From Octopus sinensis (Eukaryota): DNA of 64,000 nucleotides. The position numbers are program-made. Shown piece after piece: positions 6,001 through 61,800 of this stretch. Where the stretch lies: NCBI RefSeq assembly GCF_006345805.1, contig NC_043014.1:44082001-44146000 (forward strand), in the 5' to 3' direction. The first letter of the stretch is position 1. Each line of letters opens with the position of its first letter.

Positions 6001-8805
6001 GAGCGGGAGGGAGAGAGAGGGAGAGAGCGGGAGGGAGAGAGAGGGTGGAGCGGGAGGGAGAGAGAGGGTGGAGAGAGAGGGAGGAGAGAGAGGGTGGAGA
6101 GGGAGGAGAGAGAGGGTGGAGAGAGAGGGAGGAGCGGGAGGGAGAGAATTTTATATTCGTGCCTTACTCAGTAATCAATAATGGTAGAATTATGATTGGG
6201 TATTAAAACTTTAGAGACTGACTCATAATAAAGCTTATAGAAATGTGTTTTGATCAAAAACGTTTCCCTATCTCACACACAATTTAAAAGGTAATTCAGA
6301 CAACTAGATATAATCTTTGAACATATTTAATGAAATAACTTAAAATCAGAAATTACAACTGACTTGCAATTAGCAGCCATTTTCCCTCCCTTCAACGTAG
6401 ATTCACACAATATCCACTAAAAATTATTATAAAAAAAAAAACATCGTGAAGAAACGAATTTAATATGTGTGTGTGTGTGTGTGAAGAAGATAGTTGTGGT
6501 CTCCATCGGCAAAAGTTGTTTACAAGTTCTGTATGCCCTAAGGCAGCGTTTCTCAACCAAGGACCCCTTTAATATTTTATTCTGGTGGACCTCCATACTC
6601 ATTCGATATTTAAAAACTACACTTATAGAAACTTCTTTCAAAATCTCTCTTTTGGTTTTTTACATATTAACTTACGTAGGTCGAACTATGTAAAATGTAA
6701 AAGAAAGAAGCCCAGCTGTTTCTTTCAATACATACCAATACATATATCTAAAGTAAAATTTTTTTTCATATACCCTTAAAATACTATTGTCTATCTTCAG
6801 TTTATTATATTGTATGAACCCCCAAAAGTCTTATATGGGCCCTGTGGGCTATATGGACTTCAACTGAGAAATACTACTTAGGAGACACGAGTTTTAACGT
6901 TTTAAGCAGAAACTTTCGAGCACTTCCACTCCACCATTACAGCAATAGTTCACAAAATGGAATAATTTTTATTCTACAGGAATCTGGGTTTCGTGTAGTA
7001 GACATAGTTTAAGTATTGAATCCTACATTTCTGACATCGTTTAAAACATAAAACTTTCTGCAAAGCTTTAAAAAATGGAGGTATAAAACTAATGCAATGA
7101 TGTTAAGAAATATTGAAAAAAATAAATATATAACGTTATTCAGGTTTTAACCCGTGACAGTGTAGACACCGTATTTAAAATATTCGGTTATATTTAGTTA
7201 TTTTTAATTAACTTTTTTTTAAATTCAATTGAAATATTAAAAGCTAAAGTACATGAAAGTAAAAAATTGATAACGGCAATGATTGAAATGTAACTGTATA
7301 CAACGAAAATAGATGAAATGTATACAATAATTTCATTATTATATACATTCATATATTATATATACATTTCATATAAATGAAATGTATGCAATAATTTCAT
7401 TATTATATATACATTTCATATAAATGAAATGCATACGATAATTTCATTATTATTATTATATATTTAAAGTTCGTTATAGATTTTGAACAACTTTGAAATT
7501 CGACATCATCCTCGGTGCACACAACAGGATAAAGAGTGCGAAACAATTGATAAGAATTGTCAGCATAAGCCAGTCATGTTGTAAACCGAAGATAATAGTT
7601 GCGGATGCCAGCTTAAACGAAGAGCATATGAGACAGTGGACGAGGGTGCGATTTGGTAAGGCCGCCTTTCGTTTCGTAAACGGGAAAACCATGCAGAAGA
7701 TTATCAACGAACCGGCCGATATAGCCAAGTCTAGCGGGATGATTAAATACTCGGATATGGTATACGAAAGTTCGTGAGATAATTTCAGCAGATGTATGAT
7801 GCTGCTGCAGAAATTGAACATAGATAACGCCAGATAGATGAGTAGATAGATCCAGTGTGGTTCATAGTGAGTGGGAGTAATGCGTTGTCGGTTCGTATGC
7901 TGCTGAGATTCTCCTAGCTCTACCATTTCTATGTTCTCTTCATCGTTACGATTGCTGGAAGCAGGTGGTGGTTGTGATGTTGCCCACGAATCATTCGAGG
8001 ATCGTAGTAAATTGTTCATACTCGGACTACTCTCCAAAGCATCCATATCTACATCAGTTCTAGAACCATCGTCCATTCTTTCTCGAGATATAATCTTCTT
8101 TAGCCGTTTTGGAACCAAATGATGTGAAAACTTTCCTCCGTTTGAAATCTTAGCAGCCGGTTTTGTTTTGTATTTGTTCTCCCGGAAATGGAAATTAAAA
8201 AAAAAAAAGAAGAAAAACTACTTCCCTATTTTTCTTTTAAATTGTAAAACTTACCTTAAATGAATTAGTCCACCATTTCGGCTTGCGTCTTGCTTTCCAT
8301 TTTTTACCTGCCATTTTCTTTGGTTAATTACTATACGTATTTTTGCATTCGAATCCACAACACAATTTCAATTCTTAGTGTAGGTCATCAAACTTCACTT
8401 AGGTTTTTAATGTTGTTAGAAAAATAATGAATACCACCTCTCGATTTGTGTCCAGTGGCGGAGGCCTGTAACTCAGTTGTTAAGGTGTGAGTAGCCATGA
8501 TCATAAGACTGCAGTTTCGATTCCTGGGCCAGGTAATGCGTTGTGTTGTTGTGTTCTTGAGCAAAATATTTCATTTCACCTTGCTCTTGTCCACTCAGCT
8601 AGTGAATGAAGTAAGAATAAAATGAAAAATGTTTTTGGAGGAAAAAATAAATGATGTGTGGTAAGTAGCTTGTTTACCAACCACATGGTTCCGGGTTCAG
8701 TCCCACTGCGTGGAACCTTGGGCAAGTGTCTTCTACTATAGCCTCGGGCCGACCAAAGCCTTGTGAGTGGATTTGGTGGACGGGGCCTGAGGGAGGCCCG
8801 TCGTG

Positions 8806-8854
<49 letters not shown>

Positions 8855-58800: not shown

Positions 58801-61800
58801 CCCCTCTCCTTCGATTGAGATGAAATCGTCGCAGATAGAGCTTTTCGGAGTGACCCCACAGCCGACGCTCTGGAGCAGGAGTGAAGAACAGCTCTTTCGA
58901 GGGGTTACACTTTCCGCTTATGATGTTGTGAGCGAGAATGAGATCACCACGGCGTCATCTGTTTTTCGTTCTCCTTAATTGTTACAATGCAATCGTTTTT
59001 GCTACGCTGACTTATCAGTGCAGCTATCTCTCTCGAACCAAAGGTTTCTATGTTTCAGAATTCTCACCGGCTCCTGCATCAAATATGAAATCGGACCAAA
59101 ACGTCAAGGAAATATTTTTTGCTAATGATCAAATCAAATAAAATAAAATAAAATAAAATGTTCCTTGCAAAAACTTTTACATGACATGAAACAAATCCAA
59201 GCTCTGAAATATATATATTTCTTTACTGCTCACAAGGGGCTAAACTCAGAGGGGACAAACAAGGACAGACAAAGGGATTAAGTCGATTACATCGACTCCA
59301 GTGCGTAACTGGTTCTTAATTTATCGACCCCGAAAGGATGAAAGGCAAAGTCGACCTCGGCGGAATTTGAACTCAGAACGTAACGGCAGACGAAATACCT
59401 ATTTCTTTATTACCCACAAGGGGCTAAACATAGAGGGGACAAACAAGGACAGACAAAGGATTAAGTCGATTACATCGACTCCAGTGCGTAACTGGTACTT
59501 AATTTATCGACCCCCGAAAGGATGAAAGGCAAAGTCGACCTCGGCGGAATTTGAACCCAGAACGTAACGGCAGACGAAATACTGCAACGCATTTCGCCCG
59601 GCGTGCTAACGATTCTGCCAACTCGCCGCCTAAGCTCTGAAATACATAATTTTGGAAACGGCTGTAATCCTGACACTAGTAGCAAAAACGATATTAAGAA
59701 TTGACTGTGTGATAATGAAGGTCGCTTTGAAATCACGCAGGTTCGGCTTCAGTTCCACTGTGCGGCGCTGTTTGTCAAGCGGTGTTGCGGGACAAGCACA
59801 TACACAGTTCTCTCTCTGCAATGTTCATAGGTATTTCTGCGAAAAACAATGTCATAATGACTCCCCACCCCCGCATTCTAACGATTCTGCTAATCCGTCA
59901 ACCTTCCTCGTTTCTAATTTAAGCACAAGGCCAGTAGTTTGGGGGAGGGGCGGGAGGAAGTAGTTTTTCTATTACATTGATCCATCCTTACTTGATTGGT
60001 ATTTTATTTTATGGGCACTGAAAGTATAAAATAAAATACCTATTTCTTCATTACCCACAAGGGGCTAAACATAGAGGGGACAAACAAGGACAGACATAGG
60101 TATTAAGTCGATTACATCGCCCCCAGTGCGTAACTGGTGCTTAATTTATCGACCCCGAAAGGATGAAAGGCAAAGTCGACCTCGGCGGAATTTGAACTCA
60201 CAGCGTAACAGCAGACGAAATACCGCAAAGCATTTCGCCCGGTGTGCTAACGCTTCTGCCAGCTCGCCGCCTTAGTATAAAATAAAATACCAATCAAATG
60301 GAGTATTTGAAGCGCTTCGTTTTGCAACAGAAAGTTGAACATTGAAATGGGATACCACTAGTGATGAGCAGCGTAAATTTGAGCGCAGATATAGCTGTGG
60401 GATTCAGAACATTGTGGTTTCAGGTTAAATCCCTCTGCGTGATGCATTGAGTTAGTGTCTTCTACCATAGGTTCGGGAGGACCGAGGCTTTTAACCCTTT
60501 AGTGTTTAAACCGGCCATATCAGGCCAAAATTGTTTTCCTGTTTTATGCTCAAACCAGCCAGCTCTGACCTCTCACACCTACCCTACAAAGTCATTACAA
60601 AAATGAACAGGGACATCATCAAAATCCCGGAGTTACAAGATGCTGTACAATTCATTTAAAACAAAGTGATTAGAGAGGCTTTACATTTGACATCTGAATG
60701 CTAAAGGGTTACATCTGAATGCTAAAGGGTTAAGAGTGAAATTTGGGAAATGGTTATTTGGAAGCTCACCGAAGCGACCGTCCCTGTTTTGTGGTTGACC
60801 ATTTTAATAGTTATGTTCATTTATCATCATCACCATAATCCGATTCGAGCATTCGCAACAAGACCTCCAACAAGGAATAGCATCTTTTGTGTTGCCAATG
60901 TTACCCTGAAAGATTTTATGACCGCCACTCTCTTACCTGAAGTGTAATATTCTTAAACAAGAATTTAGACAGGAAAGTGTTTGCAGCTTGTTACAAAGTT
61001 TACACTCTTATTCTGTAATATCTCAACACATTTATAATATTGATATCTTGTCTCTAATATGTCTATAAGAAAGGGAAACTGGGGGAAAAAGTAGTGTTCA
61101 TACAGTTCAACTGATATCTTGAAATGAAAGTGAAGTTTGATAACTTCAACTAAGAATTGAAACCGCGTCGTAGATGGTAATGTACTCCATGCAAAACAAT
61201 AAGATTGTATAAAAGAAAAATAATAAGACGGACGTTGAAATTTTGGAATGGTTTATTTAAGGTCAGTTTCTGAAGTCAGAACAAAGATTTGCTTCATTTC
61301 TATTATTTCTTACAGAATTTCGCTGGTTCTGCGAGTTACACTTTTTCTGTTTTGGCGGCCGTTTTTCGGCCTGTCAGACAGGAGGAAATGGATGACCACT
61401 CCCTAGTGGAGGAGTCGGAGGAGGAATGGATATTTGAGAGCTTGTCGGAGACATCGAACTCTGAAGACGAGCAAATCGGTGATGTAAATAATGTGGAGAC
61501 AAAAAACAGGTAAACGTACGCAGGAGTTGCAAAAAAGAAGACGGAACAGGAAAATGAAATAAACCTAGAAAAATTGCCAGGTTTCCAGAGGTATATGAGG
61601 AAGGACAGCGGCGAGGTGGAACTGGAACCACCACCAAAGAGAAAGGAATGGTACAATAAGAGGACCATAATTTACAGGGTGTTCCTGAACGAAAGAAAGA
61701 AAATAGAGATCGTAAACATGGAATGGATAGAGGAGGCCCTCAGAAAATCGGAGGAGGAAATCATTTTTCTGACTCGAGGATCGAAGTACGGTACTGTAGT

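What the first reader, a model, noticed from the sequence alone, without database searches (positions are those of the whole stretch)
7474..61318. Tandem cluster of an unrecognised, fast-evolving four-TM gene family
Seen: eight paralogues (7474-8076, 16036-17169, 21407-22029, 28804-29177, 30095-30928, 41802-42401, 47656-48252 on minus; 55248-55895 on plus), spaced ~1-11 kb apart, each without introns in the CDS. They share a disordered N-terminus (APSxxN, SW/RPTRRxS, acidic NEENIEMxxL, Gln-rich linker) and a ~130-aa domain with four hydrophobic helices (HWxYLLxYLxLS; EYW...LD; FCxxFPFxKR; N..LV..LxC; FGLxxDW; SNF..QNL). Copies are strongly diverged yet mostly open, and two are damaged, which fits birth-and-death evolution. 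Inference: a lineage-specific tetraspan family (MARVEL/MS4A-like topology, no family recognised), possibly an immune or sensory membrane effector. There is no pentameric ligand-binding domain, so these are not chemotactile nAChR-like receptors.
Basis: partly seen in the sequence, partly recalled or inferred. Interest (0 to 1): 0.88.

Follow-up and report, generated by a model that had tools for sequence, protein, structure and literature searches.

The report
Unassigned four-helix membrane gene cluster
A tandem cluster of small, fast-changing genes encodes four-pass membrane proteins that match no known family; they look like real genes under weak constraint, and their function is unknown.

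Summary
All eight paralogues sit at the stated coordinates. Six ORFs are open. c3 has one frameshift and c4 is a relic. c6 also carries a premature stop 12 codons early.

Each open copy has a disordered N-terminal tail and four hydrophobic helices.

No family was recognised:
- Pfam gave no credible match for 7 of 7 proteins.
- The PDB profile search gave 0 hits at E<=10.
- Foldseek found nothing at E<=0.001 against PDB or BFVD.
- ESM Atlas best scores were 0.78 and 0.83, both unnamed clusters.

New findings:
- Eight loci share a conserved upstream module with two near-invariant blocks.
A Gag-like repeat array follows it. A similar array separates c7 from its module.
- Family-wide dN/dS is 0.88-1.03. 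A site model places 25% of TM-domain codons at omega 0.28.
- Neutral simulation predicts 3.7-4.7 stops per ORF.

My reading is real, weakly constrained birth-and-death genes. Function, expression, taxon and phyletic range remain untested.

The parts
7474..8076 (-). c1: intact single-exon CDS, 200 aa, disordered N-tail plus 4 TM helices
   Evidence: ORF; four hydrophobic segments; alignments
8255..8378 (-). c1 upstream module: block A 8366-8378, block B 8255-8271
   Evidence: Pattern searches; upstream alignment
16036..17169 (-). c2: intact CDS, 377 aa. The N-tail is lengthened by an acidic tandem repeat (16655-17120, periods 63/126/156 nt)
17325..17397 (-). c2 upstream module: block A 17385-17397, block B 17325-17341
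21407..22029 (-). c3: pseudogene with one frameshift near 21718-21733, in the TM1/loop-1 region. Its two pieces were kept separate throughout
   Evidence: pieces hit paralogues at E 1e-11 to 2e-35
22167..22271 (-). c3 upstream module: block A 22259-22271, block B 22167-22183
28804..29177 (-). c4: degraded relic. TM3 and C-terminal pieces lie in different frames, and there is no N-terminal half and no upstream module
   Evidence: tblastn 28804-29061, E 7e-7; no block A or B hit nearby
30095..30928 (-). c5: intact CDS, 277 aa, the most divergent copy. It has an 18-nt x 4.1 repeat (30771-30844) in the N-tail and an extended C-terminus
31076..31092 (-). c5 upstream block B (2 mismatches)
   Evidence: alignment
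41763..42401 (-). c6: the 199-aa ORF is 41802-42401. An in-frame premature stop removes the last 12 codons; the ancestral tail and stop are still readable at 41763-41801
   Evidence: downstream sequence; tblastn runs past the stop
42523..42634 (-). c6 upstream module: block A 42622-42634, block B 42523-42539
47656..48252 (-). c7: intact CDS, 198 aa. The proximal upstream sequence is replaced by repeat sequence
52149..52268 (-). Module most likely belonging to c7 (block A 52256-52268, block B 52149-52165). The Gag-like array now places it about 3.9 kb from the c7 ATG
   Evidence: Assigning this module to c7 is an inference
54983..55101 (+). c8 upstream module: block A 54983-54995, block B 55085-55101
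55248..55895 (+). c8: intact CDS, 215 aa, the only coding copy on the + strand. It reads past the usual stop position; a 150-nt x 2 tandem duplication (55785-56082) repeats its 3' end
61150..61315 (+). Ninth upstream module (block A 61150-61162, block B 61245-61261, pyrimidine tract ending in CAG at 61315) with no family CDS inside the window
   Evidence: 84% identical to the c6 module over 187 aligned nt
48983..51846 (-). Gag-like (CCHC-knuckle) ORF repeat array lying between c7 and its presumed module. It is not a family member
61318..64000 (+). Gag-like repeat array (unit about 1.59 kb, 92-95% identical to the minus-strand array). It starts 3 nt after the ninth module and runs off the window

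Best explanation
This is a real tandem array of a protein-coding gene family that none of the searched resources can assign. The window holds at least nine loci: c1-c7 on the minus strand, c8 and a ninth 5' module on the plus strand.

Gene structure. Each gene has a conserved upstream module of about 250 nt. The module carries two near-invariant blocks and ends in a splice-acceptor-like tract about 100 nt before the ATG. One coding exon follows.

Protein. It has a disordered, acidic N-terminal tail of 65-250 aa that varies in length and carries short conserved motifs. A compact bundle of about 130 aa with four membrane helices follows. By the positive-inside rule the N-terminus, the basic TM2-TM3 loop and the C-terminus are cytosolic. 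Very little of the protein is exposed outside.

Evolution. The family evolves by birth and death. It is selected strongly against ORF disruption but only weakly on amino-acid identity: about a quarter of TM-domain codons are constrained and the rest change at a near-neutral rate.

Mechanism (inferred, not shown). The bundle anchors the protein in a membrane and may pair with other membrane proteins through a conserved mid-membrane polar layer (Ser in TM1, Asp/Asn-Ser in TM2, Asn/Ser/Thr in TM3, polar pair in TM4). The cytosolic tail would recruit or regulate partners through its short motifs. On this reading it acts as a membrane adaptor or auxiliary subunit rather than an extracellular-ligand receptor.
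For: Shown:
- Eight copies, with pairwise BLASTP E 5e-7 to 4e-52 among the six open ones.
- The six open copies begin with ATG at aligned positions. An in-frame stop lies 18-147 nt upstream in 8 of 8 copies.
- Four hydrophobic segments in 6 of 6 open copies.
- AlphaFold2: four helices, TM-domain pLDDT about 77-86; the TM-only model has mean pLDDT 76.9 and pTM 0.64; N-terminal residues 5-64 have pLDDT below 50.
- The basic residues cluster in the TM2-TM3 loop, and several polar columns inside the helices are conserved.
- Neutral-substitution simulation at half the distance to the nearest paralogue: P(no stop) is 0.008-0.022 per ORF, with 3.7-4.7 stops expected. Indels were ignored, so the estimate is conservative. 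Joint log10 is -11.6 if the copies are treated as independent.
- The 128-codon TM domain of the six open copies needs only single-codon gaps, apart from the c6 truncation. The upstream non-coding alignment is full of indels.
- Site model M1a beats M0 in the TM domain (2dlnL 17.2, p 3e-5; 25% of codons at omega 0.28) and in the N-tail (2dlnL 7.4, p 0.006; 16.5% at omega 0.25).
- Block A occurs 7 times with <=1 mismatch (0.26 expected by chance). Block B occurs 8 times with <=3 mismatches (0.36 expected). Every occurrence is upstream of a family locus and in the gene's orientation.

Inferred: membrane orientation, the adaptor role, and the reading of the module as promoter, 5' exon and short intron.
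Against: - One-ratio ML dN/dS is 0.88-1.03 (TM domain) and 0.85-0.99 (N-tail) over six codon models. It does not differ from 1 (p 0.31 and 0.84). NG86 pairwise values in the TM domain are 0.35-0.84, but YN00 scatters between 0.64 and 2.2.
- Three of eight copies are damaged: c3, c4, and c6 in part.
- c7 is cut off from its presumed module by a 3.9-kb array.
- There is no expression evidence and no orthologues were available, so selection was measured only between old paralogues, one of them a pseudogene piece.
- The RRxS-like motif in the tail is intact in only 2 of 7 copies (c5, c8), with a reduced form in c6. Conserved tail motifs are therefore few.
- Only 9 TM-domain columns are invariant, and 8 of those are hydrophobic. 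That fits a structural role but gives no functional handle.
- Both structure models rest on 7-sequence alignments.
- A GT follows block B in only 3 of 8 modules, so the short-intron reading is weak.
Confidence: 0.5

Rival explanations
1. The array is decaying. The copies are non-functional or barely functional ORFs, former genes or cargo of a duplicating segment, drifting neutrally. The open frames are survivors and will be lost.
For: Global omega is 0.88-1.03 and does not differ from 1. Two dead copies, one truncated copy, and two with shifted stops. c7 is separated from its module by a repeat array. No known domain.
Against: Six ORFs of about 200-377 codons are open where 3.7-4.7 stops each are expected from substitutions alone. 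There are no frame-breaking indels in them, although the non-coding flanks are indel-rich. M1a shows a constrained codon class (p 3e-5). The start codon and the upstream blocks are retained at 7-8 loci.
Confidence: 0.15
2. It is a small channel or transporter-like protein. The four-helix bundle, alone or as an oligomer, conducts ions or protons, or binds a small hydrophobic or polar ligand, through the conserved mid-membrane polar layer. The cytosolic tail would gate or traffic it.
For: Polar or charged columns are conserved inside all four helices: Ser in TM1, Asp/Asn and Asn-Ser in TM2, Thr/Asn/Ser-Ala-Thr in TM3, Asp-Trp at the start of TM4 and a polar pair within it. The compact bundle has minimal loops.
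Against: None of these polar columns is invariant. Asp is Asn in 2 of 7 copies and Asn54 is Gly or Ser in 2 of 7. TM4 has no basic residues in 7 of 7 copies, so it is not a voltage-sensor type. No structural match to any solved channel at E<=0.001. High omega is unusual for pore-forming subunits.
Confidence: 0.12
3. It is a very divergent branch of a known four-pass family (MARVEL, MS4A/CD20, claudin/PMP22-like, or a truncated 7TM receptor) that single-sequence and 7-sequence profiles cannot connect.
For: It shares the gross topology, and with MS4A the tandem-cluster habit (recalled). Two of 7 copies give sub-threshold Pfam matches to GPR_Gpa2_C (E 0.0016 and 0.0058; 18.9 and 17.1 bits against a cut-off of 21). 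Weak Foldseek rows to GPCR helices (E 0.36-1).
Against: No MARVEL, CD20, claudin or tetraspanin row at E<=10 in 7 of 7 proteins. 0 PDB sequences at E<=10 with the family profile. The best Foldseek rows are soluble four-helix bundles (pectin methylesterase inhibitor, E 0.099 and 0.23), which means generic bundle geometry. The loops are too short for the claudin and tetraspanin signature loops.
Confidence: 0.12
4. The unit of upstream module plus ORF is a mobile or duplicative cassette related to the neighbouring Gag-like element. On this reading the four-helix ORF is element cargo rather than a host gene.
For: Gag-like repeat arrays follow the family module, in sense orientation, at two loci. 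At 61315/61318 the switch falls right after the acceptor-like CAG. A Gag-like C-terminal fragment also lies between c2 and c3 (18313-18609).
Against: The two arrays are 92-95% identical while their adjoining modules are only 62% identical. That points to recent insertion or homogenisation of the arrays in old, diverged host loci. The four-helix copies are 28-45% identical, so they are old, not a recent burst. No reverse transcriptase, integrase or transposase was recognised in any ORF tested. The other six modules have no Gag-like sequence.
Confidence: 0.05

Closest known systems
MS4A / CD20 family (Pfam CD20, PF04103)
   Same: Small proteins of about 200-250 aa with four passes and both termini cytosolic. 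They lie in tandem clusters and show birth-and-death evolution. Some members are reported as chemosensory (recalled, not from a call).
   Different: No Pfam CD20 match at E<=10 in 7 of 7 proteins. The coding region here is a single exon. The TM3-TM4 outside loop is only about 2 residues. The long disordered acidic N-tail is not an MS4A feature (recalled).
MARVEL-domain proteins (PF01284)
   Same: Four-helix membrane bundle with cytosolic termini. Some members have long cytosolic tails.
   Different: No MARVEL match at E<=10 in 7 of 7. The one synaptophysin-containing entry listed by Foldseek (9b8o) matched through another chain, labelled a, at E 1.3.
Tetraspanins and claudin/PMP22-type tetraspans
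   Same: Four membrane helices with conserved polar residues inside the helices.
   Different: Those families are defined by large, cysteine-bearing extracellular loops (recalled). Here both outside loops are short, and the conserved Cys columns lie within the predicted helices rather than in the outside loops. The best tetraspanin-type Foldseek row (uroplakin complex 8jj5_A) has E 2.4.
Voltage-sensor-only proteins (Hv1 type)
   Same: Four-helix bundle preceded by a cytosolic N-tail, with an acidic residue in TM2.
   Different: TM4 has no Arg or Lys in 7 of 7 copies. There is no sequence or fold match.
Fast-evolving tandem families of small immune membrane proteins (for example IFITM/dispanin)
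   Same: Short membrane proteins in tandem clusters with frequent pseudogenes and fast sequence change (recalled).
   Different: These have a different number of membrane segments (recalled). There is no Pfam match, and nothing here links this family to immunity.

Membership tests
MARVEL (PF01284) | Significant match to the MARVEL domain profile | tested here: not met
   hmmscan against Pfam-A at E<=10: no MARVEL row for 7 of 7 proteins
MS4A / CD20 (PF04103) | Significant match to the CD20 profile | tested here: not met
   No CD20 row for 7 of 7 proteins at E<=10; 0 PDB sequences at E<=10 with the family profile
MS4A / CD20 (PF04103) | Four-pass topology with cytosolic N- and C-termini | tested here: inconclusive
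   Four helices are shown. Orientation is inferred only from the basic TM2-TM3 loop; no topology predictor or experiment was available
Tetraspanin | Large second extracellular loop with conserved cysteines (feature recalled) | tested here: not met
   The TM3-TM4 connection is about 2 residues in the model and alignment
Claudin / PMP22 | Long first extracellular loop with a conserved Trp/Cys signature (feature recalled) | tested here: not met
   The TM1-TM2 connection is about 7 unstructured residues (positions 35-41 in the c8 model) with no conserved Cys pair; no Pfam row
Cys-loop (nAChR-like) receptors | N-terminal extracellular ligand-binding domain followed by an M1-M4 membrane domain with a long M3-M4 loop | tested here: not met
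   The N-terminus is disordered (pLDDT below 50). There are no Neur_chan rows. The TM3-TM4 link is about 2 residues
Voltage-sensor domain (Hv1 type) | Fourth helix with regularly spaced basic residues (feature recalled) | tested here: not met
   No Arg or Lys inside TM4 in 7 of 7 copies
GPR_Gpa2_C (PF11970) | Match at or above the curated cut-off of 21 bits | tested here: not met
   c7 scores 18.9 bits (E 0.0016) and c8 17.1 bits (E 0.0058); the other 5 of 7 have no row
Taxonomically restricted (orphan) gene family | No homologues outside a narrow clade | not testable with these tools
   The large protein collections and eukaryotic data were closed. Only prokaryote genomes were scanned (0 relatives), plus Pfam, PDB, BFVD and large ESM Atlas clusters

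The most novel reading that the evidence does not exclude
The family is a clade-restricted invention: a new four-helix membrane fold family whose conserved mid-membrane polar layer forms a small channel or an intramembrane sensor for hydrophobic molecules. It would be diversifying in a sensory or barrier tissue, with tail repeats tuning signalling. The M2a fit (51% of TM-domain codons at omega 1.5; p 0.08) would then be the first hint of diversifying selection.
Probability: 0.08. Interest if true: 0.7.

Novelty: new variant of a known kind. Interest (0 to 1): 0.38.

Why it matters
If these genes are expressed, they add an unassigned family of small four-pass membrane proteins. The family shows a clear example of ORF-preserving but amino-acid-permissive evolution in a tandem array. 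It also shows a shared promoter-like module that is better conserved than the coding sequence.

Two members are interrupted at the same relative place by a Gag-like repeat array. That makes the cluster a compact case for studying how repeat insertions remodel young gene clusters.

Without expression data or orthologues, it remains one of many uncharacterised lineage-restricted families, so its present importance is moderate.

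Tried and rejected
**Pfam**
- hmmscan of 7 family proteins at E<=10 gave only sub-threshold rows.
- The one exception is c2 against ThiD2: 26.7 bits against a cut-off of 23.5, E 8e-6, but 0 stretches passing. It lies at residues 32-57, inside the acidic tandem repeat, so I treat it as a repeat or composition artefact.
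- GPR_Gpa2_C (2 of 7 copies, below cut-off) and LtrA (c8 only, 17.3 bits against 31.9) were not pursued further.

**Structure and sequence searches**
- PDB profile search: 0 hits at E<=10.
- Foldseek against PDB with both models: best E 0.099 and 0.23, both soluble four-helix bundles.
- Foldseek against BFVD: best E 0.052.
- ESM Atlas, two calls: best 0.78 and 0.83, unnamed clusters, below the 0.9 lead level.
- The search for related loci on prokaryote genomes: the alignment query errored for lack of a conserved stretch. The single-protein query matched 29 patterns, and 0 were confirmed as relatives.

**Oligomerisation**
- Complex prediction on a homodimer of the TM domain gave no verdict (score 0.00, controls not run). 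It is neither evidence for nor against self-association.

**Internal duplication**
- hhalign of TM1-2 against TM3-4 gave probability 0.7%, so no hairpin duplication was detected.

**Selection**
- Positive selection: M2a against M1a is not significant (TM domain p 0.08, N-tail p 0.33).
- YN00 pairwise estimates were unstable, with many NA values.

**Surroundings**
- Pfam on 16 other ORFs recognised nothing credible. The hits on the 39-nt tandem-repeat ORF at 436-1221 have 0 passing stretches.
- phmmer of the Gag-like ORF against PDB gave only weak rows (best E 0.12), among them the zinc knuckle against retroviral Gag at E 0.23.

**Literature**
- Five searches were run. I saw only listings, titles and abstract starts; no paper was opened.
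- None of the listed titles or abstract starts describes such a family. That is all I can say about whether it is in print.

**Taxon**
My impression that the ~184-nt SINE-like repeat resembles octopus SINEs is recall only. A text search for a 15-mer from it found 0 papers.

**Left unchecked**
- Eukaryotic proteomes and transcriptomes.
- Paper supplements were not requested.
The frameshifted copy c3 was always handled as two separate pieces and never joined.

Full report
**1. What is in the sequence**

| Copy | Coordinates | Strand | Length |
|---|---|---|---|
| c1 | 7474-8076 | - | 200 aa |
| c2 | 16036-17169 | - | 377 aa |
| c5 | 30095-30928 | - | 277 aa |
| c6 | 41802-42401 | - | 199 aa |
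| c7 | 47656-48252 | - | 198 aa |
| c8 | 55248-55895 | + | 215 aa |

- c3 (21407-22029, -) is split by one frameshift into two overlapping frames, 21718-22029 and 21407-21733.
- c4 (28804-29177, -) is a relic. Its TM3-like and C-terminal pieces lie in different frames and the N-terminal half is gone.
- tblastn of all family pieces against the window found exactly these eight places, plus four short hits at E 0.006-0.25 that I treat as chance.
- All 15 pairs of the six open copies match by BLASTP at E 5e-7 to 4e-52, with 28-45% identity. The family is real, and it is old.
- Neighbouring copies tend to be the closest relatives: c1/c2/c3 group together, and c7/c8 pair. That fits local tandem duplication.
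- c6 carries an in-frame premature stop. The next 12 codons still read like the family's C-terminus and end at the ancestral stop.
- c5 and c8 read past the usual stop position. A 150-nt x 2 tandem duplication (55785-56082) repeats the 3' end of c8.
- Tandem repeats lengthen the N-tails of c2 (16655-17120) and c5 (30771-30844).

**2. The protein**

- Hydropathy gives four segments at aligned positions in all six open copies.
- AlphaFold2 on a 7-sequence alignment with c7 first gives helices 67-100, 108-128, 139-164 and 167-197. pLDDT is about 77-86 in the helices and below 50 for residues 5-64.
- A second model, TM domain only with c8 first, gives the same four helices with mean pLDDT 76.9 and pTM 0.64.
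- The TM2-TM3 loop carries the conserved basic cluster. The TM1-TM2 link has about 7 unstructured residues and the TM3-TM4 link has 2.
- By the positive-inside rule (established knowledge), both termini and the basic loop are cytosolic, and very little is exposed outside. This is an inference.
- Nine TM-domain columns are invariant: one Cys and eight hydrophobic.
- Several polar columns inside the helices are conserved but not invariant. They are Ser in TM1, Asp/Asn and Asn-Ser in TM2, Thr/Asn/Ser-Ala-Thr in TM3, Asp-Trp at the start of TM4 and a polar pair within it.
- In the tail, the acidic NEENIEM-like motif and PTRR are the best-kept elements. A full RRxS is present in only 2 of 7 copies.
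- Profile comparison of the two halves gives no sign of an internal hairpin duplication (probability 0.7%).

**3. Family assignment**

- Pfam shows no MARVEL, CD20, claudin, tetraspanin or Neur_chan rows at E<=10 for 7 of 7 proteins.
- The only row above a cut-off (c2 against ThiD2) lies in the acidic repeat with no passing stretch. It is an artefact. Two copies give sub-threshold GPR_Gpa2_C rows.
- The family profile finds 0 of 177,635 PDB sequences at E<=10.
- Foldseek finds nothing at E<=0.001 in PDB (two models) or BFVD. The top rows are soluble up-down four-helix bundles and pieces of GPCRs.
- ESM Atlas gives 0.78 and 0.83 to unnamed clusters, which is below the lead level.
- Prokaryote genomes hold no relative.
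'Lineage-specific' and the cephalopod attribution therefore remain untested.

**4. Are these working genes?**

Against:
- One-ratio ML dN/dS is 0.88-1.03 for the TM domain and 0.85-0.99 for the N-tail across six codon models.
- In my own MG94-F3X4 implementation, the one-ratio value does not differ from 1 (p 0.31 and 0.84). That implementation reproduces IQ-TREE's lnL of -2476.274.

For:
- Applying neutral substitutions to each open ORF, at half its distance to the nearest paralogue, gives 3.7-4.7 stops on average. P(open) is 0.008-0.022 per copy with indels ignored.
- The TM domain needs only single-codon gaps among the open copies, apart from the c6 truncation. The non-coding upstream alignment is riddled with indels.
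- A nearly-neutral site model fits much better than one ratio. In the TM domain, 2dlnL is 17.2 (p 3e-5), with 25% of codons at omega 0.28. In the N-tail, 2dlnL is 7.4 (p 0.006).
- The six open copies begin with ATG at aligned positions, and an in-frame stop lies upstream in 8 of 8 copies.
- Positive selection is not significant (p 0.08 and 0.33).

My reading is that the open frame and the hydrophobic pattern are under selection, while residue identity is only weakly constrained. Interchange among hydrophobic residues in the helices probably inflates dN (inference).

**5. The upstream module and a ninth locus**

- Aligning 340 nt upstream of the copies shows a shared module.
- Block A (CTAAGAATTGAAA) occurs 7 times with <=1 mismatch, against 0.26 expected by chance.
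- Block B (GGAATAGTTCATTTAAG) occurs 8 times with <=3 mismatches, against 0.36 expected.
- Every occurrence lies upstream of a family locus and in the gene's orientation.
- At the six loci with a nearby coding exon (c1, c2, c3, c5, c6, c8), block B begins 122-179 nt before the ATG. At the five of those that have block A, it begins 216-290 nt before the ATG.
- The module ends in a pyrimidine tract plus AG about 100 nt before the ATG.
- In 3 of 8 modules block B is followed by GT. A 55-75-nt intron is therefore possible but unproven.
- Two module copies have no coding exon next to them.
  - One sits at 52149-52268 (-), about 3.9 kb upstream of c7. c7's own proximal upstream has lost the module.
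  - The other sits at 61150-61315 (+).
- In both places a Gag-like repeat array follows. The minus-strand ORFs lie at 48983-51777 and the matching repeat sequence reaches 51846. The plus-strand array runs from 61318 to the window end. The unit is about 1.59 kb.
- Similarity between the ninth module and the c6 module (84%) stops at the acceptor-like CAG at 61315.
- The arrays are 92-95% identical to each other, but the adjoining modules are only 62% identical. The arrays are therefore recent arrivals, or have been homogenised, in old diverged loci. That assessment is an inference.
- A coding exon of the ninth locus, if one exists, lies beyond the window.

**6. Mechanism**

Nothing here measures function. 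The architecture comprises:
- a compact bundle with almost no external surface;
- a long cytosolic disordered tail that varies in length and carries a few short motifs;
- a partly conserved polar layer inside the membrane.

It fits a membrane-anchored adaptor or auxiliary subunit best. A small channel or intramembrane ligand site comes second. The short outside loops make a classical extracellular-ligand receptor unlikely. The homodimer job gave no verdict and is not used as evidence.

**7. Comparison and verdict**

- In topology and genomic habit the family resembles MS4A/CD20-type clusters. Every membership test that could be run for MS4A, MARVEL, tetraspanin, claudin, Cys-loop and voltage-sensor families was not met.
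- It is best described as an unassigned four-helix membrane family in a birth-and-death tandem array. That is a known kind of phenomenon in a form no searched resource recognises.
- Interest is moderate. The case is clean and has some unusual features: omega near 1 with preserved ORFs, promoter blocks better kept than the coding sequence, and parallel Gag-like array insertions.
- Expression, orthologues and function are all missing. Literature searches (listings only) turned up no description of such a family.

Noticed in passing
48983-51846 (-) and 61318-64000 (+); fragments at 18313-18609 (+) and 53915-53998 (-): Tandem arrays of an ORF (up to 463 aa) with a CCHC zinc knuckle, in a unit of about 1.59 kb. 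The two arrays are inverted relative to each other and 92-95% identical. No Pfam family is recognised. PDB gives only weak rows (best E 0.12), among them the knuckle against retroviral Gag at E 0.23. No reverse transcriptase or integrase was seen nearby. Both arrays sit just after a 5' module of the four-helix family.
   Followed up: partly
48310-48733, 51962-52093, 62741-62914: A piece of about 170-220 nt from the 3' end of the Gag-like unit recurs at the edges of the minus-strand array and as a 219-nt x 1.9 tandem repeat directly upstream of c7. Part of it resembles the pyrimidine/acceptor region of the family module. This suggests host sequence was captured when the array formed.
   Followed up: partly
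43557-43968 (+): An isolated fragment of eukaryotic large-subunit rRNA (138.9 bits, model positions 1925-2337 of 3401), far from any rDNA unit. It is probably a pseudogene or a transposon-carried fragment.
   Followed up: no
12439-12533 (+): A 5S rRNA-like stretch just above the gathering score (39.8 against 38 bits). It could be a 5S pseudogene or the head of a 5S-derived repeat.
   Followed up: no
window-wide, e.g. 13839-14207, 23539-23902, 33759-34488, 52481-53002, 54557-54928, 59216-59582: A SINE-like repeat of about 184 nt, often as head-to-tail dimers or longer. 40 blastn hits total about 5.9 kb. My impression that it resembles octopus SINEs is recall only.
   Followed up: partly
520-1175 (ORF 436-1221, -): A 39-nt x 16.8 tandem repeat creates a spurious 261-aa ORF. 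Its Pfam rows (IRF-2BP1_2_M, FAIM1) have no passing stretch and are repeat artefacts.
   Followed up: yes
16508-17200 (+): A 230-aa antisense ORF overlaps the acidic repeat of c2. It is a by-product of the repeat and not a gene.
   Followed up: partly
52268-54983: The orientation of the family switches here. The presumed c7 module (-) and the c8 module (+) face away from each other about 2.7 kb apart, so the cluster consists of two divergently oriented blocks.
   Followed up: no
5846-6147 and 53479-53815: A purine-rich GA/GGA low-complexity tract and a 29-nt x 11.9 tandem repeat. Neither has an evident link to the family.
   Followed up: no
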